A stretch of 64,000 nt of DNA from Alphaproteobacteria bacterium (GCA_045603405.1 JAZUMA010000032.1:64102-128101), one strand, 5' to 3'. Shown: positions 48,600 through 57,217, counted from the first letter of the stretch. Translations and numbers: made by a program. Notes: generated by a model not told the origin, from the sequence alone.

Positions 48600-49082
48600 T
48601 TACTCAATAACCACTAAAGGTTCGCCATATTCAACCGGATCGCCGGATTCAACCAAAATCTTAACCACTTTACCGCTCTTATGCGCTTTGACAGGATTAA
48701 AAGTTTTCATTGCTTCTACCAAACAAACGGTATCACCTTCTACCACGCTATCTCCCGGTTTAACATAATTTTGTGATTTTGGATCTGCAGAAAGGTAAAC
48801 AACGCCAACCATCGGAGATTTAACGGCATTAGGACTGTTTGTATAATCCTCTTCAACAGAAGAAGCCGTTGTTTCTGATACAGCTGCAACAGGAGTAACT
48901 ACAGTCGGGGCAGAAGCTATTGTCTGCGTTTGCGCATAACTTGTTTGTACGTTTGCGCTTCCCAAATTTCTAGCCAAAGAGATTCGGCAAGTTTCATCTT
49001 CATATTCAAGTTCTGTTAAATTAGTTTTATCCAAGATTTCAGCCAGTTTGCTTATTATTTTTGTATCTATCGGATTAGACAT
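48600..49082 (-). CDS. accB: biotin carboxyl carrier protein
   Basis: It contains the EAMKT biotinylation motif (VEAMKTFNPV) and a Pro/Ala/Thr linker. The start was set at the second of two adjacent ATGs, based on GAGGA spacing. Confidence 0.9.
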   Translation of the reverse strand: MSNPIDTKIISKLAEILDKTNLTELEYEDETCRISLARNLGSANVQTSYAQTQTIASAPTVVTPVAAVSETTASSVEEDYTNSPNAVKSPMVGVVYLSADPKSQNYVKPGDSVVEGDTVCLVEAMKTFNPVKAHKSGKVVKILVESGDPVEYGEPLVVIE

Positions 49083-49269
49083 CATTATCCTCACAATAAA
49101 AATTAAATCTGCACCATCATTAGCCCAAAACAGAAAAAATACAAGCTTTTTCTTTGAATGCTCCCCAATAATACACAAAAAACACTTTTTTTAAGGAAAA
49201 TCTTGCAATTTTGGGTAACTTTATTTTATAATCCTCATCACTGAGAATATTTTGATTAAAGGAACGATT

Positions 49270-50526
49270 ATGGCAAATTTAGAAAGTGTTTTGAAAAACT
49301 ATACAATTTCAGGTGAAATTATCAATGAAACACGCGGTCCGCTCTTAAAAATTATAGAGTTTGAACCGGCACCTGGAACAAAACTTAAAAATATAACCAT
49401 GTCATTAGAAGATATTCGTCGTGAGTTAGGTGTTGCCTCGTTGCGCGTAGAACCGGCAGAAACCGGAAATGCTTTGTTATTTGAGATACCTGCCGAAAAT
49501 TTTGAGACGGTTGATTTTAAGCGGATGCTTGATTCTGAAGAGTTTGAAAAAGCAAAATCTAAATATGCGTTACCAATTTGCTTAGGAGCAGATATCAAAG
49601 GAACACCTGTATTTGCCGATTTAGCCAAAATGCCGCATATGTTAATCGGTGGAACAACAGGTTCCGGAAAATCAGTCGGTTTAAATACTTTTATGCTGTC
49701 TTTAATAGCGGCAAAAAAGCCTGCAGATTTGAAATTTGTGATGATAGATCCGAAAAAAATTGAGTTTACGATATATAATAATCAAAAATATATGATGGGG
49801 CCGGTTATCACGGAAAGTTGGGATGCTGTTAAAGTTTTATCTTTGCTTACAACAGAAATGGATAAGCGCTATGATATATTTGCCGAAAATATGGTTAAAA
49901 ATTTGGCAGAATATAATGAGAGAGGCGATGGACATATGCCTTATATTGTATGTGTAATAGATGAGTTTGCTGATTTAATGGCGGTAGATAAGTCCGTAGA
50001 AAAGGATGTAATGCGGTTAGCACAGAAGGCACGCGCAGCTGGTATTCATTTGATGTTAGCTACTCAACGTCCGTCGGTTGATGTTGTGACCGGAGTGATG
50101 AAAGCAAACTTCCCGACCAGATTGGCCTATAAGATGGCATCCAGGGTTGATTCGCAAACAATTATTGATATGCCGGGTGCTGAAAATTTGATTGGGCGAG
50201 GAGACTGTTTATTTTTAGCATCAGATGGTGCATTAAAACGCTTACATGGTGCATATATGCCGGATGAAGGGATTGCGGAAATGTTGAAGCCCTACGAGGG
50301 GAAAGTTAAGCCTTGGAATTTTCCTGAACAAGAAGAAGTTGTTGCTAAAGGATCAACCGGCAAGCAGGTTGTGGTCAAAAAAGAGAGTATCATTAAGCGT
50401 TGTTGGAAATGGTGGTGTGATCTAGGAACCAGAAAACAACAGCAAATCATCAATATATTCAAAAAATATGTTTTACCGACAATTGTAGCTTGGTATGCAA
50501 CCCACAAAAACAAAAAGAAGAAATAG
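49270..50526 (+). CDS. FtsK/SpoIIIE-family DNA translocase motor, lacking N-terminal TM and gamma domains
   Basis: It has Walker A GGTTGSGKS, Walker B VCVIDEFADL, and ATQRPSVDV. Only 419 aa. The C-terminus is basic and aromatic (CWKWWC..VLPTIVAWYATHKNKKKK). Confidence 0.8.
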   Translation: MANLESVLKNYTISGEIINETRGPLLKIIEFEPAPGTKLKNITMSLEDIRRELGVASLRVEPAETGNALLFEIPAENFETVDFKRMLDSEEFEKAKSKYALPICLGADIKGTPVFADLAKMPHMLIGGTTGSGKSVGLNTFMLSLIAAKKPADLKFVMIDPKKIEFTIYNNQKYMMGPVITESWDAVKVLSLLTTEMDKRYDIFAENMVKNLAEYNERGDGHMPYIVCVIDEFADLMAVDKSVEKDVMRLAQKARAAGIHLMLATQRPSVDVVTGVMKANFPTRLAYKMASRVDSQTIIDMPGAENLIGRGDCLFLASDGALKRLHGAYMPDEGIAEMLKPYEGKVKPWNFPEQEEVVAKGSTGKQVVVKKESIIKRCWKWWCDLGTRKQQQIINIFKKYVLPTIVAWYATHKNKKKK

Positions 50527-50544
50527 AATAGCCATGTGCGCAAA

Positions 50545-51120
50545 ATGAAAGATTTAGGTAGCAGGTTTTTAGCAACTCAAAGACTAGAGTTAAAGTCCCA
50601 AACAATGAAAGAACAAAAACATCTTTGGGAAATTTTAATGCTACCTGAGGTAAATCGCTTTTATTTGACTGTTTCTGCGCCACGCGATAATTTAATGAAT
50701 TGGGAACTTCAAAAAGAATTTTATAAAAAATCAAAAGAACACGCCAAAGACCTTGATGTTTATAAGTGGAGCATCTTTTTAAAAAGAACAGAGACTTGTA
50801 TTGGTCAAATAGATTCACACCAAATAGATAATTTAGATTCGAGTATCAGAGGAATAGGGTGGTACATCGGTCCTAAGTACCAACAAAAAGGTTATGCCAC
50901 CGAGGCTGCTGAAGCGATGATTAAATACTTATTTGCTGAAGTCAAAATAAATTCAATACAAACAAAAGCGGCTGTTAATAATATAGCTTCTTGGAAAATT
51001 ATGGAACATTTGGGGGTTAAGCGATTACCGGAAACATGTTGGACAAACTATACTTTTCTGGATGAACCGGCTGAATGCTATAAATATATCTTGACTGAAA
51101 AGATGTACTTTAAACAATAA
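50545..51120 (+). CDS. GNAT N-acetyltransferase (RimJ/RimL-like)
   Basis: It contains TQRLELK near the N-terminus and the acetyl-CoA motif QQKGYATEAAEAMIKY. Confidence 0.75.
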   Translation: MKDLGSRFLATQRLELKSQTMKEQKHLWEILMLPEVNRFYLTVSAPRDNLMNWELQKEFYKKSKEHAKDLDVYKWSIFLKRTETCIGQIDSHQIDNLDSSIRGIGWYIGPKYQQKGYATEAAEAMIKYLFAEVKINSIQTKAAVNNIASWKIMEHLGVKRLPETCWTNYTFLDEPAECYKYILTEKMYFKQ

Positions 51121-51137
51121 AGAATTTCATTTTTAAA

Positions 51138-51548
51138 CTAATGCAGATATTCTTTTATCACTTGTTTTAGTTTTTCAACATCTATCGTGATTTCATCTTC
51201 AAAAATTAACTCATCGACACTGCATTTTTCTATAGATTGGTACGTTGAATCCATTTTATAAAAAGCAATTTTTTTCTGTAATTTCATTGCATACTCGATT
51301 TCAAAAACACATCCATTGGCAATTTCACCAAAAAACCAGACTTCATCACATCGAGAAATTAAATTATTATTTCCATTACGAATAAGATCTCTGTCAACTA
51401 ATTCATTTAAAAAGTATCCATACACATTAAAAGGATTAATAGGCACTCCGCCGTGTTCAAAAACATATTTACAAACAAGCATCCTCATAAAAAAATTCTT
51501 TTTTGATTGTGCAGTAAAAATAAGCGGTTTTTTTTCGATTAAATTCAT
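51138..51548 (-). CDS. hypothetical protein, nucleoside 2-deoxyribosyltransferase-like fold suspected
   Basis: The pattern PINPF...CDEVWFFGEIANGCVFEIEYAMKLQKKI matches the ..G...E...A..g-K-i arrangement of NDT-like/DUF4406 proteins. The start was reset to MNLIEKK. Confidence 0.35.
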   Translation of the reverse strand: MNLIEKKPLIFTAQSKKNFFMRMLVCKYVFEHGGVPINPFNVYGYFLNELVDRDLIRNGNNNLISRCDEVWFFGEIANGCVFEIEYAMKLQKKIAFYKMDSTYQSIEKCSVDELIFEDEITIDVEKLKQVIKEYLH

Positions 51549-51624
51549 CTGATAGTCCTTATTTGTCAATAACATTGTTAAATATATCATAAATCTATTA
51601 AGAATCAAGTCATAATTAATTTAA

Positions 51625-51702
51625 CAAGCTCGAACCTCGGTTCGATCCCCAAACACAAAAAAACACCCGAGTAGGGTGTTCTTAAATGGTGGCCAGAGAG
51701 GG
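51625..51702. repeat. 78-nt direct repeat, distal copy (a terminator plus the last 16 nt of tRNA-Phe)
   Basis: It is identical to 51875-51952 except A/G at 51651/51901. Confidence 0.9.
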
Positions 51703-51874
51703 CTCGCAGAGCAAAAACAATCCTGTGAATTGTTTTTGCCGAGAGCATCAGTAAATGTTAGTGAGCGACTTTGTGGAAGCACAAACAAAGTGAATGTTAC
51801 AATTATGGGTGTCGAGCCTCCTCGACCTTGTCCGAAGCGCAGTTGGCAAGCGCTAAAGCGCGAGCCATATGGAG

Positions 51875-51936
51875 CAAGCTCGAACCTCGGTTCGATCCCC
51901 GAACACAAAAAAACACCCGAGTAGGGTGTTCTTAAA

Positions 51937-51952
<16 letters not shown>
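51875..51952. repeat. 78-nt direct repeat, proximal copy (overlaps the tRNA-Phe 3' end)
   Basis: See the distal copy. It spans the tRNA-Phe terminator and tRNA positions 61-76. Confidence 0.9.
51905..51930 (-). terminator. intrinsic terminator of tRNA-Phe (a duplicate lies at 51655-51680)
   Basis: The minus strand reads aacaccc uacuc ggguguu followed by a U-run. Confidence 0.75.
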
Positions 51953-52012
<60 letters not shown>

Positions 52013-52025
52013 ATCACGAGATACC

Positions 52026-52054
52026 ATTATAAATGAGATTTTTTTAGTTGGCAA
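52026..52054 (-). promoter_or_regulatory. putative tRNA-Phe promoter
   Basis: On the minus strand: TTGCCA, a 17-nt spacer, then TATAAT, 13 nt upstream of the tRNA 5' end. Confidence 0.6.
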
Positions 52055-52103
52055 GCATTTTTTTTATTTTTCTGCATTTTTTTGCAATACTTTGAATTAA
52101 AGA

Positions 52104-52134
52104 TAAAAAAGGCCGTCATAAAAGACGGCTTTTC
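52104..52134 (-). terminator. intrinsic terminator of htpG
   Basis: aaaaaaggccgtc ataaaa gacggctttt lies just past the htpG stop. Confidence 0.7.
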
Positions 52135-52147
52135 AGCAAAAATAAAA

Positions 52148-53992
52148 CTAAGCCACAAGAGATTTCAAAATAAACTCACTCAATTTCTCATTAAACAAAC
52201 TAGGGTTAGATACCGCTTCTCCTTCGGCTATTTTGGCTTGTTCCAAAATCAGCATGGAAGCATCCTTAACTTCATCTTCATGCCGTTTGTCTTGTACCAA
52301 TTCTGCCAGTTTAATAATAAGTGGATGATAAGGATTTAATTGTAAAACTCTTGTGCTGTCAAAATTCGTCTTCTGCTGATGATTTCGCATCAATCGTTCC
52401 AAATGAATACTCATCTGTCCGTCTTCAACTGTCAGATTTGCCGGACTTGTGGTCAATTTTTCCGTAGCTTCAACTTTACCGGCTTCTCCCTTAAACCATT
52501 CGGTCATTTTATCCATCAACATATGCAAACCTGTTTCATCAGCCTTAGCTTCATTACGTTCAAACTTCAAATCAATATCGGCCTGAGAAATATGCTTTAA
52601 GTTGTGTTCTTTATAAGAGAGCAGGGTTTGTGTCCAAAATTCATCGATTGGATCAGTTAAAAGCAAAACTTCAATATTTTTCTTCTTAAAAGCATCTAAC
52701 TGTGGGTTGCAACAAAGGGTTTTAGCATCATCACCGGTAATATAATAAATATCTTTTTGATTTTCCGGCATATGTGCAATATAATCATCTAAAGAAATCA
52801 ATTTTTCAGGAGATTTAGTCGAATAAAAGCGCGACAAACCGGCGACTTCTTCTCGATTAGCAAAATCTTCGTAAATACCTTCTTTAAAAGCCACTCCGAA
52901 AGCTTTCCAAAATGTTTCATAATCTGTCTCGTTTTCAGCTTTCCTCTTCAATTCTTTAAATAAACGGGAAACAACCCCTTGTCTTATTTTAGCAATCAGT
53001 GCATTATGTTGCAGCATCTCACGCGAAATATTTAATGGTAAATCATGACTGTCAATAATACCTTTAACAAAGCGCAGATACATTGGCATCAAGCCTTCAA
53101 CCTTATCAGAAATAAACACCTTATTAACATATAATTTTATACCTGTTAAACGGTCGGGTTGAAATAAATCATAAGGTGCTTTGGTAGGAATAAATAAAAG
53201 CCCTGTATATTCCAAACTGCCTTCTGCCTTAAAATGCAATGTCATCCACGGATCATCAAAGTTTTTAGTCACATGTTGATAGAAATCTTTGTATTGTTTT
53301 TCGGTAATATCCGCTTTGTTTCTTGTCCATAATGCAGCAGAAGTATTTACGGTTTCTTCTCCGGCTTCTCCAAGATTTAAAACAATTGGATAATCAATAT
53401 GTTCAGAATATGTATGAATGATATTTCTTAAATAAATTGTATCCACATAATCTAAAGCATCATCTTTTAAGTAAAGCGTAATATCCGTACCGTTAGTATC
53501 TTTTTTAGCTTCTGCAATTTCAAATCCGTCGACACCGTTTGACACCCAAGAATAAGCTTGCTCACTATCCGCCCTTTTAGTTACTATTTCAACTTTAGAC
53601 GCAACCATAAAAGCTGAATAAAAACCAACACCGAATTGACCGATTAAATCAACGATAGAACTGTTATCTTTTGCATTTTGTATAAATTCTGCTGTACCTG
53701 ATTTAGCAATTGTTCCGATATGATTAATTAAATCATCTTTGTTCATACCGATACCGTTATCAGAAATCATTAACGTTTTTTTATCTTTATCAGCGGTAAT
53801 AACAATCCGATATGGTGCATCAGATTTCTTTAAGTCCGGATTAGTCAAAGTCCAATAACGTAACTTATCAAGAGCATCTGATGCATTAGAAATCAATTCT
53901 CTTAAAAAAATATATTTTTCAGAATAAAGTGAGTTAATAACAATATCTAAAAGCTTGTTAACTTCTGTTTTAAACTCTATTTTTTCAGCCAT
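52148..53992 (-). CDS. htpG: molecular chaperone HtpG (Hsp90)
   Basis: It contains FLRELISNASDALDKLR, DNGIGM and GQFGVGFYS (a GHKL ATPase), at full length (614 aa). Confidence 0.95.
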   Translation of the reverse strand: MAEKIEFKTEVNKLLDIVINSLYSEKYIFLRELISNASDALDKLRYWTLTNPDLKKSDAPYRIVITADKDKKTLMISDNGIGMNKDDLINHIGTIAKSGTAEFIQNAKDNSSIVDLIGQFGVGFYSAFMVASKVEIVTKRADSEQAYSWVSNGVDGFEIAEAKKDTNGTDITLYLKDDALDYVDTIYLRNIIHTYSEHIDYPIVLNLGEAGEETVNTSAALWTRNKADITEKQYKDFYQHVTKNFDDPWMTLHFKAEGSLEYTGLLFIPTKAPYDLFQPDRLTGIKLYVNKVFISDKVEGLMPMYLRFVKGIIDSHDLPLNISREMLQHNALIAKIRQGVVSRLFKELKRKAENETDYETFWKAFGVAFKEGIYEDFANREEVAGLSRFYSTKSPEKLISLDDYIAHMPENQKDIYYITGDDAKTLCCNPQLDAFKKKNIEVLLLTDPIDEFWTQTLLSYKEHNLKHISQADIDLKFERNEAKADETGLHMLMDKMTEWFKGEAGKVEATEKLTTSPANLTVEDGQMSIHLERLMRNHQQKTNFDSTRVLQLNPYHPLIIKLAELVQDKRHEDEVKDASMLILEQAKIAEGEAVSNPSLFNEKLSEFILKSLVA

Positions 53993-54089
53993 AACATTCT
54001 CCTTGTTTAACTAGCTAAACAACACACAAAAAATATATAGGAAGTTGATTAAACAAACGCAAGCCTATTAAAGAATAAAATTAAAAAAA

Positions 54090-54629
54090 TTATTGAACAC
54101 CTTTTTTTTCTAATAAAGAAACAATAGGTAAGAACCTTTTTTTTCTAGCAATTTCTATAGGTGTTTCATTTTTAGCTGTCAAATAATTCATATCTCCGCC
54201 CAAGTCTATAATTTTTTCAACAGCATCAATTTTATTGCCTAAAATGGCATACATCAAAGGCGTATATCCTTGATAATCAGGGAAATTGATATAAGCTCCG
54301 TTTTTACAAAGCAAATCAATAACATCTATATTTCCTGCTTGTGCAGCATGATGAAGTGCAACGGTACCATCTTTACCACGTTTATTAACAACAGCATCAT
54401 TTAAAATTAAAAACTGTACAAAATTTCTTTTTCCTAACTGAGAAGCAATAATCAGAGGTGTATAACCATCTTTACCTATTTCATCAACGCTATATCCTAA
54501 AATAACCATATCTGAAAAGGCATCCAAATTTTCTTGTTCAATTATTTTGTATAAAGTCTCTTCCTCTGCCTGTACAGAAAAAGAAGATAAAAATAAAATT
54601 GCTAAAACAAGCCGACATATTCGCATCAT
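54090..54629 (-). CDS. secreted ankyrin-repeat protein
   Basis: A signal peptide (MMRICRLVLAILFLSSFSVQA) is followed by about 4 ANK repeats (GYTPLIIAS, GTVALHHAAQAGN, GYTPLMYAILGN, ETPIEIA). Confidence 0.85.
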   Translation of the reverse strand: MMRICRLVLAILFLSSFSVQAEEETLYKIIEQENLDAFSDMVILGYSVDEIGKDGYTPLIIASQLGKRNFVQFLILNDAVVNKRGKDGTVALHHAAQAGNIDVIDLLCKNGAYINFPDYQGYTPLMYAILGNKIDAVEKIIDLGGDMNYLTAKNETPIEIARKKRFLPIVSLLEKKGVQ

Positions 54630-54790
54630 CTAAAATCTCCAATTCAGATTTTTCAAATAACCATCAATGAAAAAACAATAATTTTCCTAATTATAAAGAG
54701 GAAATAATTAAAAAAAAACTAAAATAAAACTTGACAAAAGTAATTTTTTCGGCAAAATTGATTTACTTATAACAATAAAACAAGGATAAA

Positions 54791-56995
54791 ATGACAACAT
54801 TAAAGATAAATAACCAAATTTATCGAAATTCCGTACCTCCTGGAAGACGGAACAGTCTTTTATTGATTTATTATGATTATGTTTTTTTGGTTCAGGCATT
54901 ACAAGAAAAATATAATCGACATTCTATCCGTGAAATAGCACAAACAAGCAAAGAACAAATATTTAATGATAAACCTTCTCCTTGGCTTGTATGTTTGGCA
55001 AACGAAACGGATATTGAAAATTACAATAATTTTATGAATAAAAAAACGATAGATAGAAATAATCATAATTGTTACATCAGCCTTAATTTAACATCCACCA
55101 GCACCATCAAAACCTCGGAAGATATAATATCTGCTCCACAGGATTATGAAATATGGACGCATTATAACACATTACCACATCGTATTGAGCGGTTGACAGC
55201 AGTTGCACAAAAGGGTGAAACCATAGCAGCCACTAGATTTATTGTTGCTGGAAAATATGTTTTAACATATAATGAAAAAGATTCTTCTATAAAATTAGCT
55301 GATATAATGAATAACGAAAATTTCATAAGAAAAATAAATTATATCCTTGATTATTTAGCCAGATTACCACAAGACATAAAAAATTTAGATGAACAACAAA
55401 AAGAAAATATTGAAACAGAAGTTTTCGCAGAAATCACATTGTCATCAATAGAAAGCAGCATTTTAGATACATTATCTTTACTGACAGATGAAAGCCATAA
55501 AGCCATAAAAGACATATTAGAAAAAAGGGTAGGAGAAAGATTTTTGGCACAAGCAGAAAAAGAAGGAATAATCTCATCTGCCTCAAGTTTACAGAATTAT
55601 TTAAATATCAGACATTTATTACATCATCAATGGGATACATTAGATAATCTGGGAAGATTTAATGATAATGAAGCATTAAAAAACAAGGGACTTAGGCAAC
55701 AATTTTTAAATTCATACAGTGAGTTATGCAATAAACCATTAAAAGAACGGATTAAAGGGTATAATGAAGCAGTAAAATTCTATGCTCCACTTGTAGAAAT
55801 GTTAAATCCACAGTTATTTATTCAAAAAGAAAATGAAAGTGATACAGATTTTAACAAACGGATAGAAAAAACAGCAGCATCCTTAAAAAATAAATTAATT
55901 TATATTCAAACATATAAAAAGAAAAAGAATCAGCTGAAAAAGCTTAAAAAACAATTTCCGAATGCTAAAATTATTAATAAAACAGATAAAAGTGATTTAG
56001 ATATTCTATTAAAGAACTGTCAATATCGTCATTTTTTCTCGGAAATATACCAAAAAATAGAATATAAAGTTAATTTATATTGTCTGCTTTCAGGTAAAAA
56101 CTATACTCCTAATTTAGCGTGGAATTATATTTACCGTCATAAACTTATTCCGTCCCAAGAAAAGAATAAATGGGATGTGTATAAAGAAATACGAAACGAA
56201 CTAAGCCATCAATATATGAGTGCAGAAACAAACCAAAGACTGACAGAAATTTTTCCAGCGTTCATCAATAGTGCCATTCAATTAGAGACAAAAATTGATG
56301 CTTTATTACCTGAAGTAAAATCAAAAAGTGATGGTACATGTGTGGCTATTCATCCTGATGGCCGTATAGCAATAATTAATTTTAAAAATCAAACTGTATC
56401 ACAATCAAGTAAAAATAATATAAATAAACATGCGCCAACTATTAAATCTTTTACTGAAGAATATAATGGTGGAATAAGTATAACGACAACAGGAACCGAA
56501 ATTTCTTCTTGTAAATTAAATAACGGAATAGAAATTGATTTTGAAAAAAAACAAATCAAATATACACCTGGTGTAATTGTTTATATAAAAGGCAATCGGA
56601 GGTTTATTAAATCCGCTTTTAATGAAAAAATAATAACAGATGAGAAATTTAAAATATTAAAGTATATTATAAACAACAAAGAAATTAAGATTGGCAAAAA
56701 TGAAAATTGTCGTTTTAATCAAAACCATCAAATCAATATAAATAACCATATGCAAATTAGCGAAGAATCTTGGTCTTCACCACAAGTCGGTAAACAATAT
56801 ATAAAATATTCCGTAGAGGATAATATAGCTAAACTGCAATTTTCTGATAATACTGTATTATGGCTAGAAGAAGATGATATCAGAGTTTTTCATGAAAATA
56901 TCGAATTAACCTATGCTTTAAGGAGAACTTTTGCAGCATCTTATGTTAACGATCAAAATATAATACCGGTAAATAGTATTCAGAAAGCACGTTAA
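54791..56995 (+). CDS. large orphan protein with two HEPN-type R-x4-H motifs (tandem HEPN, putative RNase)
   Basis: The motifs are YLNIRHLLHHQWD (R274..H279, nt 55610-55627) and EIRNELSHQYMS (R468..H473, nt 56192-56209). Both sit in contexts like the NTase-substrate-binding (HI0074/DUF86-like) HEPN motif RNxxxHxY. They are flanked by an unknown N-terminal domain (about 230 aa) and an unknown beta-rich C-terminal domain (about 220 aa). The gene is very AT-rich. Confidence 0.55.
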   Translation: MTTLKINNQIYRNSVPPGRRNSLLLIYYDYVFLVQALQEKYNRHSIREIAQTSKEQIFNDKPSPWLVCLANETDIENYNNFMNKKTIDRNNHNCYISLNLTSTSTIKTSEDIISAPQDYEIWTHYNTLPHRIERLTAVAQKGETIAATRFIVAGKYVLTYNEKDSSIKLADIMNNENFIRKINYILDYLARLPQDIKNLDEQQKENIETEVFAEITLSSIESSILDTLSLLTDESHKAIKDILEKRVGERFLAQAEKEGIISSASSLQNYLNIRHLLHHQWDTLDNLGRFNDNEALKNKGLRQQFLNSYSELCNKPLKERIKGYNEAVKFYAPLVEMLNPQLFIQKENESDTDFNKRIEKTAASLKNKLIYIQTYKKKKNQLKKLKKQFPNAKIINKTDKSDLDILLKNCQYRHFFSEIYQKIEYKVNLYCLLSGKNYTPNLAWNYIYRHKLIPSQEKNKWDVYKEIRNELSHQYMSAETNQRLTEIFPAFINSAIQLETKIDALLPEVKSKSDGTCVAIHPDGRIAIINFKNQTVSQSSKNNINKHAPTIKSFTEEYNGGISITTTGTEISSCKLNNGIEIDFEKKQIKYTPGVIVYIKGNRRFIKSAFNEKIITDEKFKILKYIINNKEIKIGKNENCRFNQNHQININNHMQISEESWSSPQVGKQYIKYSVEDNIAKLQFSDNTVLWLEEDDIRVFHENIELTYALRRTFAASYVNDQNIIPVNSIQKAR

Positions 56996-57009
56996 CTTTT
57001 TATCACAAT

Positions 57010-57038
57010 CATCTATATGACGGTCATAGATTTTTTTT
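57010..57038 (+). terminator. intrinsic terminator after the tandem-HEPN gene
   Basis: catctatatgac ggtcatagat is followed by T8. Confidence 0.6.
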
Positions 57039-57060
57039 ACACATTTATACATTTTTCTTA

Positions 57061-57090
57061 TTGACATTAATAAAAATTAAATGTAATTAT
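57061..57090 (+). promoter_or_regulatory. putative promoter of the tRNA at 57109
   Basis: TTGACA (57061-57066), a 17-nt spacer, then TAATTA preceded by TG (an extended -10-like element). Confidence 0.4.
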
Positions 57091-57108
57091 CACACTCGTT
57101 ACATATAT

Positions 57109-57181
57109 GGCGGGATAGCTCAGTCGGTAGAGCAGAGGAATCATAATCCTTGTGTCGTGGGTTCGAATCCCTCTCTCGCTA
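57109..57181 (+). tRNA. tRNA with CAU anticodon (elongator Met or Ile2), CCA not encoded
   Basis: GGCGGGATAGCTCAGTCGGTAGAGCAGAGGAATCATAATCCTTGTGTCGTGGGTTCGAATCCCTCTCTCGCTA. The cloverleaf folds, with two G-U pairs in the acceptor stem and one U-U in the T stem. The next bases are tta, not cca. Confidence 0.65.
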
Positions 57182-57186
57182 TTAAG

Positions 57187-57217
57187 AAAAACAGAGCCTT
57201 ATGGGTTCTGTTTTTTG
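57187..57217 (+). terminator. intrinsic terminator after the tRNA
   Basis: aacagagcc ttat gggttctgtt is followed by a T-run. Confidence 0.65.

What the first reader, a model, noticed from the sequence alone, without database searches (positions are those of the whole stretch)
54791..56995. Orphan 734-aa protein with two HEPN R-x4-H motifs (intramolecular tandem HEPN) and no CRISPR or MNT partner
Seen in the sequence:
- Two motifs, NIRHLLHHQWD (R274-H279) and EIRNELSHQYM (R468-H473), lie about 195 aa apart.
- Each is preceded by a helical segment resembling the HI0074/DUF86-type HEPN (..EGI....RNxxxHxY).
- They are flanked by an unknown N-terminal domain of about 230 aa and an unknown beta-rich C-terminal domain of about 220 aa.
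- The gene is monocistronic, with a putative TTGACA upstream and its own terminator at 57010-57038.
- It is extremely AT-rich; hand-counted lines give 18-30% G+C.
- It is the last gene before a tRNA and a lineage discontinuity.

Established knowledge: HEPN RNases need two R-x4-H motifs to build one composite active site. They achieve this either by dimerising (HepT, Abi and Csm6-type proteins) or by carrying two HEPN domains in one chain (Cas13).

Inference: this is a single-chain tandem-HEPN RNase whose extra domains may act as sensors or autoinhibitors. That would make it a candidate stand-alone abortive-infection or defence effector. I found no repeat array within several kb on either side, so it is not a recognisable Cas13 locus.
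Basis: partly seen in the sequence, partly recalled or inferred. Interest (0 to 1): 0.75.

Follow-up and report, generated by a model that had tools for sequence, protein, structure and literature searches.

The report
Lineage-specific single-chain tandem-HEPN RNase candidate
This 734-aa gene belongs to a previously undescribed protein family, found only in small-genome gut and rumen Alphaproteobacteria, that carries two HEPN ribonuclease domains in one chain; it is inherited vertically rather than sitting in a mobile defence island, so it is a credible new RNase architecture whose biological role is still open.

Summary
The ORF (54791-56995, +) and both R-x4-H motifs are real. Two such motifs alone are weak evidence (chance about 0.13). 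Conservation is the strong evidence. In 62 full-length relatives, down to 19% identity, only eight residues are invariant, and four of them are R274, H279, R468 and H473. The two motif blocks are also the two most conserved 15-residue stretches of the protein.

The second domain (aa 400-506) is clearly a HepT/HI0074-type HEPN (hhalign 97.4%, P=1e-11; PDB HEPN toxin 7ae9, E=0.002). The first domain (aa 196-340) is a divergent copy, collinear with HI0074 (E221/A255/R274/H279 against E44/A79/R100/H105).

The family has 118 representatives among 1.84 billion proteins. It occurs only in gut and rumen alphaproteobacterial MAGs. It has no MNT partner, no CRISPR array and no PADLOC, phage or plasmid match. 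It co-diverges with HtpG (Spearman 0.87) but evolves about ten times faster.

So a tandem-HEPN RNase is supported, while a defence role is only a guess. I could not test whether the two motifs face each other. The "lineage discontinuity" is an assembly chimera inside tRNA-Met. Overall this is a new variant of a known kind, of moderate interest.

The parts
54730..54758 (+). Conserved sigma-70-type promoter block: CTTGACA, 16-nt spacer, CAAAAT
   Evidence: Found by the promoter scan. The block CTTGACAAAA..TTTTTCGGCAAAAT is invariant or near-invariant in 6 loci whose X proteins are only 34-60% identical.
54782..54786 (+). Shine-Dalgarno AAGGA, 5 nt before the ATG
   Evidence: Read directly from the sequence. 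The N-terminus aligns with homologues from about residue 5.
54791..56995 (+). Gene X: 734-aa tandem-HEPN protein (stop codon included)
   Evidence: ORF list. There are 17 close and 118 representative homologues, all about 750 aa or fragments. AF2 model has pLDDT 82.6 and pTM 0.67.
54791..55375 (+). N-terminal alpha/beta domain (aa 1-195), unknown fold family; invariant P129, near-invariant W65, P116, E133, G154, Y160
   Evidence: Secondary structure and conservation. No consistent Pfam, PDB or PHROG match. hhalign against HI0074 gives P=0.16.
55376..55810 (+). HEPN-A (aa 196-340): divergent HI0074-type HEPN; invariant E221, A255, R274, H279, R320
   Evidence: hhalign against HEPN-B gives P=2.5e-4, with R274 aligned to R468 and H279 to H473. 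hhalign against the HI0074-like family gives P=0.0044, with E221 aligned to E44 and A255 to A79. A global alignment puts R274 on R100 and H279 on H105. The region is predicted all-helical.
55610..55627 (+). R-x4-H motif 1 (R274-H279, RHLLHH) inside the most conserved block of the protein (YLNIRHLLHHQWDTL, aa 270-284)
   Evidence: R and H are present in 62/62 sequences. This is the lowest-entropy window.
55811..55987 (+). Inter-HEPN insert (aa 341-399): small alpha/beta element with conserved E349-S350-x3-F354-x2-R357 and D396
55988..56308 (+). HEPN-B (aa 400-506): HepT/HI0074 (NTase_sub_bind)-type HEPN
   Evidence: hhalign against 119 HI0074-like proteins gives prob 97.4%, P=1.2e-11. The family profile hits PDB 7ae9_A, 'HEPN toxin', at E=0.0024, with R468 aligned to the residue mutated in entry 7ae6, HEPN(R102A). 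HI0074 (1jog) scores E=0.1. 13 of 17 members hit PF01934 and PF08780, best E 1e-4.
56192..56209 (+). R-x4-H motif 2 (R468-H473, RNELSH, followed by Q-Y475)
   Evidence: R and H 62/62, N469 58/62, S472 59/62, Y475 44/62. This is the second lowest-entropy window.
56309..56992 (+). C-terminal beta-hairpin-repeat domain (aa 507-734; about 19 strands over aa 508-701; disordered tail aa 720-734)
   Evidence: DSSP on the AF2 model. Only weak fold matches to single-layer beta-sheet and beta-propeller proteins (TCP10 G-box, BamB, WD40), with TM-scores of 0.27 or less.
57010..57038 (+). Weak AT-rich hairpin plus T8 run after the stop codon (possible terminator, not significant)
   Evidence: -2.8 kcal/mol, z = -0.8. 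Not called by the terminator scan.
57108..57182 (+). tRNA-Met(CAT), the true downstream neighbour of X in this subclade; its 3' 30 nt (57152-57181) is the chimeric assembly crossover
   Evidence: tRNA called. L049 and L050 have X followed by tRNA-Met. The alignment shows the 5' part identical to alphaproteobacterial tRNA-Met. The 3' 30 nt are shared with a different Firmicute tRNA-Met (L044), which the window then follows at 96.6% identity.
54090..54629 (-). Divergently transcribed ankyrin-repeat protein (179 aa), N-terminus signal-peptide-like by eye; a conserved neighbour, probably not a functional partner
   Evidence: ORF. Ank Pfam hits in the syntenic genes. tblastn gives 44.5% identity to the L001 copy.

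Best explanation
Gene X encodes a new, lineage-restricted family of single-chain tandem-HEPN proteins. I read it as a metal-independent endoribonuclease.

Proposed mechanism:
- HEPN-A (aa 196-340) is a divergent HI0074-type domain and HEPN-B (aa 400-506) is a clear HepT/HI0074-type domain.
- The two pack as an intramolecular pseudo-dimer. R274/H279 and R468/H473 then build the one composite active site that ordinary HEPN toxins make by homodimerising.
- There is no antitoxin, MNT or guide-RNA partner, and the gene is transcribed from its own strongly conserved promoter. Activity must therefore be controlled within the chain. The N-terminal alpha/beta domain and the C-terminal beta-hairpin-repeat domain are the candidates for gating or substrate targeting.

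Biological setting: the gene is a vertically inherited chromosomal gene (tRNA-Phe/htpG/ank/X/tRNA-Met) of small-genome gut and rumen Alphaproteobacteria. It evolves about ten times faster than HtpG. That pattern fits a conflict-facing or trigger-sensing RNase (phage or stress-induced RNA cleavage) better than a slowly evolving housekeeping enzyme.

Shown: two HEPN-like domains, invariant catalytic-type residues, absence of partners, vertical inheritance and fast divergence.

Inferred: RNase activity, the intramolecular composite site, autoinhibition by the flanking domains, and the defence or stress role.
For: - R274, H279, R468 and H473 are 4 of only 8 invariant residues in 60-62 full-length members down to 19% identity. 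The two motif blocks are the two most conserved windows.
- HEPN-B: hhalign against the HI0074-like family gives 97.4%, P=1.2e-11. PDB HEPN toxin 7ae9_A scores E=0.0024, with R468 aligned to the Arg mutated in entry 7ae6, HEPN(R102A). 13/17 members hit PF01934 and PF08780. The exhaustive profile search reaches stand-alone HI0074-type proteins (P0131), which carry precomputed PF08780/PF01934 hits.
- HEPN-A: aligned in register with HEPN-B (P=2.5e-4) and with HI0074-like proteins (P=0.0044, against 0.16-0.41 for control domains). E221/A255/R274/H279 match E44/A79/R100/H105 with near-identical spacing.
- Fold: the model of aa 193-508 (pLDDT 83.9) has HEPN proteins as its best structural neighbours (1wty_A TM 0.70, prob 0.98; 1wwp, 7ae6, 8xdj).
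- No partner: neighbours vary across clades and include no MNT, Cas or array.
- Promoter block conserved in 6 loci.
- Vertical inheritance and rate: Spearman 0.87 against HtpG over 153 pairs. HtpG 97% corresponds to X 72%, and HtpG 84% to X 38%.
- Intramolecular HEPN pairing has precedent in Cas13 (PMC12165695), and two HEPN domains also occur in one chain in CoCoNuT III-A CnuE (PMC11090510).
Against: - No biochemical data exist.
- HEPN-A evidence is sub-threshold on every single test: hhalign probabilities are 43% and 8%, and the global alignment gives P=0.076.
- Foldseek E-values for the HEPN matches are non-significant (1.6-6.5).
- Pfam hits stay below the curated cut-offs.
- The relative orientation of the two motifs could not be examined because no coordinates or PAE are returned. 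Inter-subunit pairing (A with B' in a homodimer) or two independent sites are equally possible.
- Nothing links the gene to defence. There is no PADLOC hit, no defence-island context, no patchy distribution, and no phage or plasmid copies.
- A constitutively transcribed toxic RNase without an antitoxin requires an autoinhibition mechanism that is purely hypothetical.
Confidence: 0.55

Rival explanations
1. Housekeeping or lineage-specific RNA-processing or RNA-decay enzyme. The tandem-HEPN protein would be a core RNase of reduced-genome gut Alphaproteobacteria, analogous to Las1 in rRNA processing. It would be constitutively expressed and act on defined cellular RNAs, not in defence.
For: - Conserved chromosomal synteny next to htpG, accBC and tRNAs.
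- Co-divergence with HtpG.
- Conserved consensus-like promoter.
- No antitoxin or immunity partner.
- Retained, sometimes in two copies, in MAGs that include Ca. Enterousia. That lineage, order Rs-D84, has genomes below 1 Mb (PMC12306168).
- Absent from mobile-element collections.
Against: - It diverges about ten times faster than HtpG (34% identity where AccC is 94% and HtpG 82%), which is unusual for a core processing enzyme.
- The family is confined to a narrow set of lineages (118 representatives in 1.84 billion proteins).
- Contexts in distant clades are not conserved.
- The fraction of lineage genomes that carry it was not measured.
Confidence: 0.22
2. Exported toxin or effector aimed at a eukaryotic or bacterial partner cell. 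The HEPN RNase would be delivered outside the producer, which would explain the missing antitoxin and the fast evolution.
For: - Neighbours are repeatedly proteins with eukaryote-like repeats (ankyrin, EF-hand, MORN); the window's ankyrin protein has a signal-peptide-like N-terminus by eye.
- Fast divergence.
- The host lineages are proposed to be partner-dependent (PMC12306168).
Against: - Reading the N-terminus, I see no signal peptide or transmembrane segment in X; this was not tested with a predictor.
- No secretion-system genes or immunity gene lie nearby.
- Polymorphic-toxin HEPN domains are normally C-terminal cassettes with adjacent immunity genes, by my recollection of that literature. 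Here the HEPN pair is central and the whole architecture is conserved.
Confidence: 0.08
3. Non-catalytic HEPN scaffold, for example a component or regulator of the phage-derived tail-fibre/holin/spanin cassette that follows X in many relatives. The R/H residues would be kept for ligand or nucleic-acid binding rather than for cleavage.
For: - In 20+ loci X is followed on the same strand by a gene with a phage tail-fibre N-terminal domain (phrog_1640, E=1.5e-29), a holin (E=3.7e-6) and a weak spanin-like ORF.
- The profile gives a marginal hit to reovirus sigma-1 fibre (E=0.077).
Against: - The cassette is cleanly absent in the window and in its two closest relatives, where X is followed directly by tRNA-Met. 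It is also absent in all distant clades, yet X keeps all four R/H residues.
- No PHROG or BFVD structural match of substance.
- No homologue in phage collections.
Confidence: 0.06
4. Cas13-like RNA-guided effector whose array or guide lies elsewhere.
For: Two HEPN domains in one chain of Cas13-like size. Cas13 arose by fusion of two HEPN genes (PMC12165695).
Against: - No array or structured RNA in the locus, and no cas gene among the called neighbours of the related loci.
- No Cas13 appears among the listed top-50 fold matches.
- The HEPN type is HepT/HI0074, not the AbiD/F type from which Cas13 is traced (PMC12165695).
- Loci were not scanned for arrays systematically beyond the window.
Confidence: 0.02

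Closest known systems
HepT / HI0074-type HEPN toxins of HEPN-MNT toxin-antitoxin systems (Pfam PF01934 HepT-like, PF08780 NTase_sub_bind; 'HEPN-M' class of Anantharaman et al. 2013, PMC3710099; PDB 7ae9, 1jog, 1wty)
   Same: HEPN-B is homologous at profile level (97.4%, P=1e-11; 7ae9 E=0.0024). It has the RNxxxHxY signature, including the Tyr two residues after His (Y475, 44/62). HEPN-A is collinear with the same domain type. Best structural neighbours are 1wty, 1wwp, 7ae6 and 8xdj.
   Different: - The known proteins are about 130-150-aa single-domain proteins that homodimerise. They are encoded next to an MNT antitoxin that AMPylates them (Songailiene et al. 2020, as listed in the references of PMC11090510).
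- X is 734 aa with two HEPN copies in one chain plus two extra domains.
- X has no MNT in any locus examined and is not mobile.
Cas13 (type VI CRISPR effectors)
   Same: Two HEPN domains in one polypeptide, which in Cas13 dimerise intramolecularly to form one RNase site (PMC12165695). The size class is similar to compact Cas13s.
   Different: - No CRISPR array or guide RNA.
- No Cas13 among the listed top-50 fold matches.
- The HEPN domains are HepT/HI0074-type rather than AbiD/F-type, so X looks like an independent duplication or fusion.
- Flanking domains are unrelated to REC lobes.
CnuE effectors of type III-A CoCoNuT (McrBC-related) systems
   Same: A non-CRISPR protein with two HEPN domains in one chain (PMC11090510).
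   Different: CnuE has an N-terminal wHTH and a second HEPN with a shortened RxH motif, and sits in McrB/McrC-type operons (PMC11090510). X has two full R-x4-H motifs, different flanking domains and no such operon.
Sensor-fused HEPN RNases that act without an antitoxin (RNase L/Ire1 KEN domains, Csm6/Csx1 CARF-HEPN, ApeA, AbiF)
   Same: The logic of a HEPN nuclease held inactive by, or activated through, fused sensor domains. X is a single-gene system.
   Different: Those proteins use one HEPN per chain and activate by ligand-driven dimerisation. None shares the N- or C-terminal domains of X, and there is no PADLOC match.

Membership tests
HEPN superfamily | R-x4-6-H motif conserved across the family | tested here: met
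   R274/H279 and R468/H473 are present in 62/62 sequences. A polar residue follows the Arg: H or N at 275 in 60/62, and N469 in 58/62.
HEPN superfamily | Significant sequence or profile similarity to an established HEPN family | tested here: met
   Met for HEPN-B: hhalign 97.4%, P=1.2e-11; PDB 7ae9_A E=0.0024; 13/17 members hit PF01934 and PF08780 at up to 1e-4, although below the Pfam cut-offs.
HEPN superfamily | First domain (aa 196-340) is also a HEPN domain | tested here: inconclusive
   In-register alignments to HEPN-B (P=2.5e-4, prob 43%) and to HI0074-like proteins (P=0.0044, prob 8%; controls 0.16-0.41). Invariant E221/A255/R274/H279 match E44/A79/R100/H105. This is suggestive, but each test is sub-threshold.
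HEPN superfamily | All-alpha up-and-down helical bundle fold | tested here: inconclusive
   AF2 predicts only helices in both regions. The best PDB neighbour is 1wty_A (TM 0.70, prob 0.98), but Foldseek E=1.6. Which half aligned is not reported.
HEPN superfamily | Two R-x4-H motifs juxtaposed in one composite active site | not testable with these tools
   No coordinates or PAE are returned by structure prediction, and both prediction jobs are used.
HepT-MNT toxin-antitoxin system | Adjacent MNT (minimal nucleotidyltransferase) antitoxin gene | tested here: not met
   No NTase gene flanks X in the window or in 40+ loci. There is no consistent NTase Pfam hit in the N-terminal domain.
HepT-MNT toxin-antitoxin system | Small single-domain toxin (about 130-150 aa) | tested here: not met
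   All full-length members are about 700-810 aa with the same four- or five-part architecture.
Cas13 / type VI CRISPR | CRISPR array (and usually other type VI context) next to the effector | tested here: not met
   No direct-repeat array in 49000-57200 and no Rfam CRISPR or ncRNA match. None seen in the related loci's gene lists.
Cas13 / type VI CRISPR | Structural similarity to the Cas13 bilobed architecture | tested here: not met
   No Cas13 chain among the listed top-50 PDB matches of the full model or the HEPN-region model.
Known anti-phage defence systems (PADLOC-DB v2) | Match to a defence-protein model | tested here: not met
   0 families at E up to 10.
Defence or abortive-infection genes in general | Mobile or patchy distribution, defence-island context | tested here: not met
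   Conserved synteny and co-divergence with HtpG. No copies in IMG/VR, INPHARED or PLSDB. Neighbours are housekeeping or repeat proteins. Presence or absence across whole genomes was not measured.
CoCoNuT type III-A CnuE | wHTH-HEPN-HEPN effector in a McrB/McrC-type operon | tested here: not met
   No McrB/C, helicase or wHTH hits in X or its neighbours.

The most novel reading that the evidence does not exclude
X would be an independently evolved counterpart of the Cas13 solution. In this reading a HepT-type HEPN gene duplicated in cis to give a self-contained pseudo-dimeric RNase. Its N- and C-terminal domains sense a trigger, such as a phage protein, a partner-cell cue or an unlinked small RNA. 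The protein has become a fixed, vertically inherited, antitoxin-free immune or stress switch in ultra-small gut symbiont genomes.
Probability: 0.12. Interest if true: 0.8.

Novelty: new variant of a known kind. Interest (0 to 1): 0.5.

Why it matters
According to PMC12165695, HEPN RNases typically homodimerise, and Cas13 stands out by pairing two HEPN domains within one chain. Type III-A CoCoNuT CnuE is a second reported protein with two HEPN domains in one chain (PMC11090510).

A third, independent tandem-HEPN lineage would show that cis-duplication of HEPN is a recurrent way to escape the need for dimerisation and for an antitoxin. This one is built from the HepT/HI0074 type, has new flanking domains, needs no MNT, array or operon partner, and has become a fixed chromosomal gene of reduced-genome gut symbionts.

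If confirmed, it would provide:
- a compact scaffold for studying how a toxic RNase is gated within one chain;
- a conserved marker gene and a physiological clue for the poorly known Rs-D84/Enterousia-like Alphaproteobacteria.

If it is simply a housekeeping RNase, it is still a new enzyme family for genome annotation.

Tried and rejected
- Direct family searches of X (Pfam, NCBIfam, PADLOC, PHROGs, PDB sequences) gave nothing above threshold. Only per-member and profile searches revealed the HEPN signal.
- Full-length fold searches against PDB and BFVD were dominated by weak beta-repeat matches (TCP10 G-box, BamB, WD40; TM 0.27 or less). They were uninformative for the HEPN region and for the N-terminal domain.
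- Cas13 or an RNA-guided system was rejected. There are no arrays, no Rfam hits and no Cas13 among the listed fold matches.
- A HepT-MNT toxin-antitoxin system was rejected, because there is no MNT anywhere near.
- A functional link to the phage-like tail-fibre/holin/spanin cassette was rejected. The cassette is absent in the window, in its closest relatives and in distant clades.
- Hidden paralogues among the large unknown neighbours (736, 648 and 754 aa) were rejected. hmmsearch with the family HMM finds only X itself.
- A genomic island or HGT boundary at the tRNA was rejected in favour of an assembly chimera.
- Short 'C-terminal-domain-only' hits from the representative search (P0084, P0104, P0093, P0106) look like chimeric or internally deleted gene calls. 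I did not use them as evidence of domain mobility.
- Covariation or DCA for inter-domain contacts was not attempted, because about 60-100 sequences are too few.
Full report
**1. What is in the sequence**

The ORF at 54791-56995 (+) encodes 734 aa. It has an AAGGA ribosome-binding site 5 nt upstream.

It contains three R-x4-H strings:
- R274-H279 (RHLLHH);
- R468-H473 (RNELSH);

With 30 Arg and 16 His, 0.65 such strings are expected by chance. Two or more occur in 13% of shuffles, and two of the stricter R[NH]x3H form occur in 0.25%. The motif count alone is therefore weak evidence.

Gene G+C is 28.4%, against 34.6% for the upstream 54 kb.

No direct-repeat array and no Rfam family other than two tRNAs occur in 48-58 kb.

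The proposed terminator at 57010-57038 is a weak hairpin plus a T-run (-2.8 kcal/mol, z = -0.8). The terminator scan did not call it.

**2. The family**

A word-indexed search found 17 full-length relatives (31-60% identity, about 735-790 aa), none with a precomputed Pfam domain.

An exhaustive HMM search of 1.84 billion representatives found only 118 proteins at E up to 1e-3. Nearly all are full-length (about 700-810 aa) or fragments of the same architecture. The only outsiders are short stand-alone proteins such as P0131 (139 aa), which match the second motif region. P0131 carries precomputed PF08780 and PF01934 hits, and sources name its relatives 'nucleotidyltransferase substrate binding protein'.

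In 60-62 full-length members, down to 19% identity to the window protein, only eight columns are invariant: P129, E221, A255, R274, H279, R320, R468 and H473.

The two lowest-entropy 15-residue windows of the whole protein are 270-284 (YLNIRHLLHHQWDTL) and 463-477 (VYKEIRNELSHQYMS).

In the alignment the Arg of the third R-x4-H (R641) is not conserved. I treat that motif as a chance occurrence.

This is the main result.

**3. Are the two regions HEPN domains?**

*HEPN-B (aa 400-506): yes.*
- 13 of 17 members individually hit PF01934 (HepT-like), and 13 of 17 hit PF08780 (NTase_sub_bind). The best E is 1e-4, which is below the curated cut-offs.
- The family profile hits the PDB 'HEPN toxin' 7ae9_A at E=0.0024 over 70 columns. 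R468 and H473 fall on the LRNRLVHEY segment of the toxin, whose Arg is the residue mutated in entry 7ae6, 'HEPN(R102A)'.
- HI0074 (1jog) follows at E=0.1.
- hhalign against an alignment of 119 HI0074-like proteins gives probability 97.4% and P=1.2e-11.

*HEPN-A (aa 196-340): probably.*
- hhalign against HEPN-B aligns AEKEGIIS..NIRHLLHHQ with ..RHKLIPS..EIRNELSHQ in register (P=2.5e-4, probability 43%).
- hhalign against the HI0074-like family gives P=0.0044. Control regions (N-terminal domain, linker, C-terminal domain) give 0.16-0.41.
- That alignment puts the invariant E221 and A255 on residues that are highly conserved in the closely related HI0074-like set used (E44 in 119/119, A79 in 111/119). 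A global alignment puts R274 on R100 and H279 on H105.
- The E-A-R spacing is 34/19 residues in HEPN-A and 35/21 in HI0074-like proteins. The E-to-A spacing in HEPN-B is shorter.

*Structure predictions.*
- AlphaFold2 models are confident: full length pLDDT 82.6, pTM 0.67; aa 193-508 pLDDT 83.9.
- They give an all-helical central region. Each R-x4-H lies at the C-terminal end of a helix.
- A small alpha/beta insert (aa 341-399) separates the two halves.
- The best PDB neighbour of the central-region model is the HEPN protein 1wty_A (target TM 0.70, probability 0.98), with other HEPN entries (1wwp_A, 7ae6_B, 8xdj_A) also in the top 50. Foldseek E-values are 1.6-6.5, so the fold evidence is supportive, not decisive.
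- No Cas13 chain appears among the listed top-50 matches.

I could not test whether the two motifs face each other. The tools return no coordinates or PAE, and both prediction jobs are used.

**4. Other domains**

The N-terminal domain (aa 1-195) is alpha/beta. It contains the conserved LPHRIERY segment, with P129 invariant.

The C-terminal domain (aa 507-719) has about 19 short strands.

Neither has a convincing relative. Full-model fold searches returned only weak single-layer beta-sheet and propeller matches (TCP10 G-box, BamB, WD40; TM 0.27 or less) in PDB and BFVD. Per-member Pfam scans gave nothing consistent, and in particular no nucleotidyltransferase.

**5. Genomic setting**

Upstream of X the window has accC, accB, an ftsK-like gene, tRNA-Phe, htpG and an ankyrin-repeat protein whose N-terminus looks like a signal peptide. 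These are collinear with relatives, at these identities to the L001 copies:

| Protein | Identity to L001 copy |
|---|---|
| AccC | 94% |
| HtpG | 82% |
| Ank | 45% |
| X | 34% |

Thirty-seven GTDB species-representative loci encode the family. All but one (L015) are titled as alphaproteobacterial or proteobacterial; most are MAGs whose isolate names point to gut or rumen samples. Examples are 'Ca. Enterousia sp.' and 'Acetobacter sp. 46_36'. Three genomes carry two copies. According to PMC12306168, order Rs-D84, which includes Enterousia, has genomes below 1 Mb and a proposed partner-dependent lifestyle.

No relative exists in IMG/VR, INPHARED phages or PLSDB plasmids. PADLOC gives no hit.

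In the closer clade the order is htpG(-) ank(-) | X(+). X is then followed by a 269-290-aa protein with a phage tail-fibre N-terminal domain (phrog_1640, E=1.5e-29), a holin (E=3.7e-6), a weak spanin-like ORF, and tRNA-Met.

In the window, and in its two closest relatives (P0002 at 59% and P0003 at 48% identity), this cassette is absent. X is followed directly by tRNA-Met.

In more distant clades the context is different and variable. Neighbours include cyclophilin, metK, Bax1-I, GT2 and TfoX, and proteins with EF-hand, ankyrin or MORN repeats. No MNT, Cas, McrBC or other recurrent partner appears.

Pairwise identities of X track those of HtpG (Spearman 0.87, 153 pairs), but X diverges roughly ten times faster:

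| HtpG identity | X identity |
|---|---|
| 97% | 72% |
| 90% | 52% |
| 84% | 38% |

The promoter block CTTGACAAAA..TTTTTCGGCAAAAT, about 30 nt upstream of the start, is nearly invariant in six loci despite this protein divergence.

X is therefore a vertically inherited, autonomously transcribed, fast-evolving chromosomal gene.

**6. The 'lineage discontinuity'**

Downstream of 57182 the window carries these genes:
- a hemerythrin-like gene;
- an SH3/transglutaminase-like gene;
- a beta-lactamase-family gene;
- ispF;
- a PD-(D/E)XK-like gene (by eye, not tested);
- cysE.

A second contig (L044) continues with cysS, a mini-RNase-III gene and a SpoU methylase. I recognise this as a Firmicute gene order.

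L044 matches the window at 96.6% identity from position 57115 onward.

The alignment shows three things:
- The first 44 nt or so of the window's tRNA-Met, and its upstream region (57032-57107), are alphaproteobacterial. The tRNA part is identical to L001, L005 and L013.
- L044 carries a different tRNA-Met that shares only the last 30 nt (57152-57181).
- After the tRNA the window follows L044, not the alphaproteobacterial loci.

Tetranucleotide correlation with the rest of the window drops to 0.896, against 0.976-0.99 for the other segments. In the closest relative with enough flank (L049), tRNA-Met is followed by alphaproteobacterial genes: an aas-like gene, an EF-hand gene, rnhA, a SLFN/AlbA gene and lemA.

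The junction is an assembly chimera through a shared 30-mer. It is not a genomic island boundary.

**7. Interpretation**

The best-supported reading is a new family of single-chain tandem-HEPN proteins, most likely endoribonucleases. A HepT/HI0074-type domain has been duplicated in cis.

By analogy with Cas13, where HEPN1 and HEPN2 dimerise intramolecularly (PMC12165695), the two R-x4-H motifs probably form one composite site within the chain. Type III-A CoCoNuT CnuE is a further example of two HEPN domains in one chain (PMC11090510). This step is inferred, not shown.

No antitoxin or guide is encoded nearby and the promoter looks constitutive. The flanking domains are therefore the likely regulators or targeting modules. 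This is also inferred.

Fast divergence with strictly fixed catalytic-type residues fits a conflict-facing or trigger-sensing RNase. But vertical inheritance, conserved synteny and retention in very small genomes fit a lineage-specific housekeeping RNase almost as well.

My estimates:

| Claim | Probability |
|---|---|
| Active tandem-HEPN RNase | about 0.65 |
| Defence or stress-triggered role | about 0.3 |
| Housekeeping role | about 0.22 |
| Exported toxin | about 0.08 |
| Non-catalytic or phage-cassette-linked | about 0.06 |
| RNA-guided, Cas13-like | about 0.02 |

**8. Novelty and score**

The family is not covered by Pfam, NCBIfam, PADLOC or PHROGs. I found no description of it in four full-text searches for tandem or dual HEPN proteins, HEPN pseudo-dimers and these bacterial lineages.

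Tandem HEPN in one chain is already known (Cas13, CnuE). The reasons are that the defence reading lacks support, the composite site is untested, and part of the perceived oddity (the discontinuity and the terminator) is artefact or weak.

Noticed in passing
window 57152-57181 (inside tRNA-Met 57108-57182) and everything downstream to 64000: The contig is an assembly chimera. Alphaproteobacterial sequence (1 to about 57151) is joined to Firmicute-like sequence (hemerythrin-like, SH3/transglutaminase, beta-lactamase-family, ispF, cysE) through a 30-nt stretch shared by two different tRNA-Met genes. Tetranucleotide correlation falls to 0.896, against 0.976 or more elsewhere in the window.
   Followed up: yes
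L001 12430-13613; L004 12408-13914; L005 12433-13869 (absent from the window between 56995 and 57032): In many relatives a phage-derived cassette sits between X and tRNA-Met. It has a tail-fibre N-terminal-domain protein (phrog_1640, E=1.5e-29), a holin and a weak Rz-like spanin, with no endolysin or other phage genes nearby. It may be a domesticated remnant or a GTA-like accessory locus. It is cleanly missing in the window's subclade.
   Followed up: partly
window 54090-54629 (-): A 179-aa ankyrin-repeat protein with a signal-peptide-like N-terminus (by eye) is divergently transcribed from X and conserved in that position across the clade (45-83% identity). Larger ankyrin proteins, EF-hand proteins and MORN-repeat proteins neighbour X in distant clades (L020, L022, L027, L030, L049). 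These eukaryote-like repeat proteins suggest a host- or partner-associated lifestyle.
   Followed up: partly
window 54730-54758: The promoter block CTTGACAAAA-N-TTTTTCGGCAAAAT is almost invariant across loci whose X proteins are only 34-60% identical. That is more conservation than -35 and -10 elements need, so it may include an operator.
   Followed up: partly
L015 (CAYVUJ010000134.1, labelled 'uncultured Lachnospiraceae bacterium'): A contig carrying the alphaproteobacterial htpG-ank-X arrangement is binned as Lachnospiraceae. This echoes the Alphaproteobacteria/Firmicute mixing seen in the window's contig and suggests recurrent mis-binning or mis-assembly between these co-occurring gut taxa.
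   Followed up: no
L004 4950-7160 (-), L005 5261-7207 (-), L001 17313-19577 (-): Large proteins (736, 648 and 754 aa) with no Pfam or PHROG match lie near htpG or lemA in relatives and are absent from the window's syntenic region. They are not paralogues of X (hmmsearch).
   Followed up: partly
window 56711-56728 (aa R641-H646): A third R-x4-H string (RFNQNH) lies in the C-terminal beta domain. Its Arg is not conserved in homologues, so I treat it as a chance occurrence.
   Followed up: yes
proteins P0093 and P0106: Short gene products join the first 60 or so residues of the X N-terminus directly to the C-terminal beta domain, with no HEPN region. They may be internal-deletion pseudogenes or assembly collapses. 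If real, they would be natural HEPN-less variants.
   Followed up: no
L001 14996-17234; L004 18419-20633; L049 10633-12812: A conserved rnhA, SLFN/AlbA_2 and lemA block lies a few kb downstream of tRNA-Met in the alphaproteobacterial genomes. It would be the true downstream neighbourhood of X in the window's organism.
   Followed up: no
L050 1-76 and 5188-5263: The contig of the closest relative (P0002) starts in tRNA-Phe and ends 7 nt after tRNA-Met. This shows that assemblies of these genomes routinely break, or mis-join, at these tRNA genes.
   Followed up: yes
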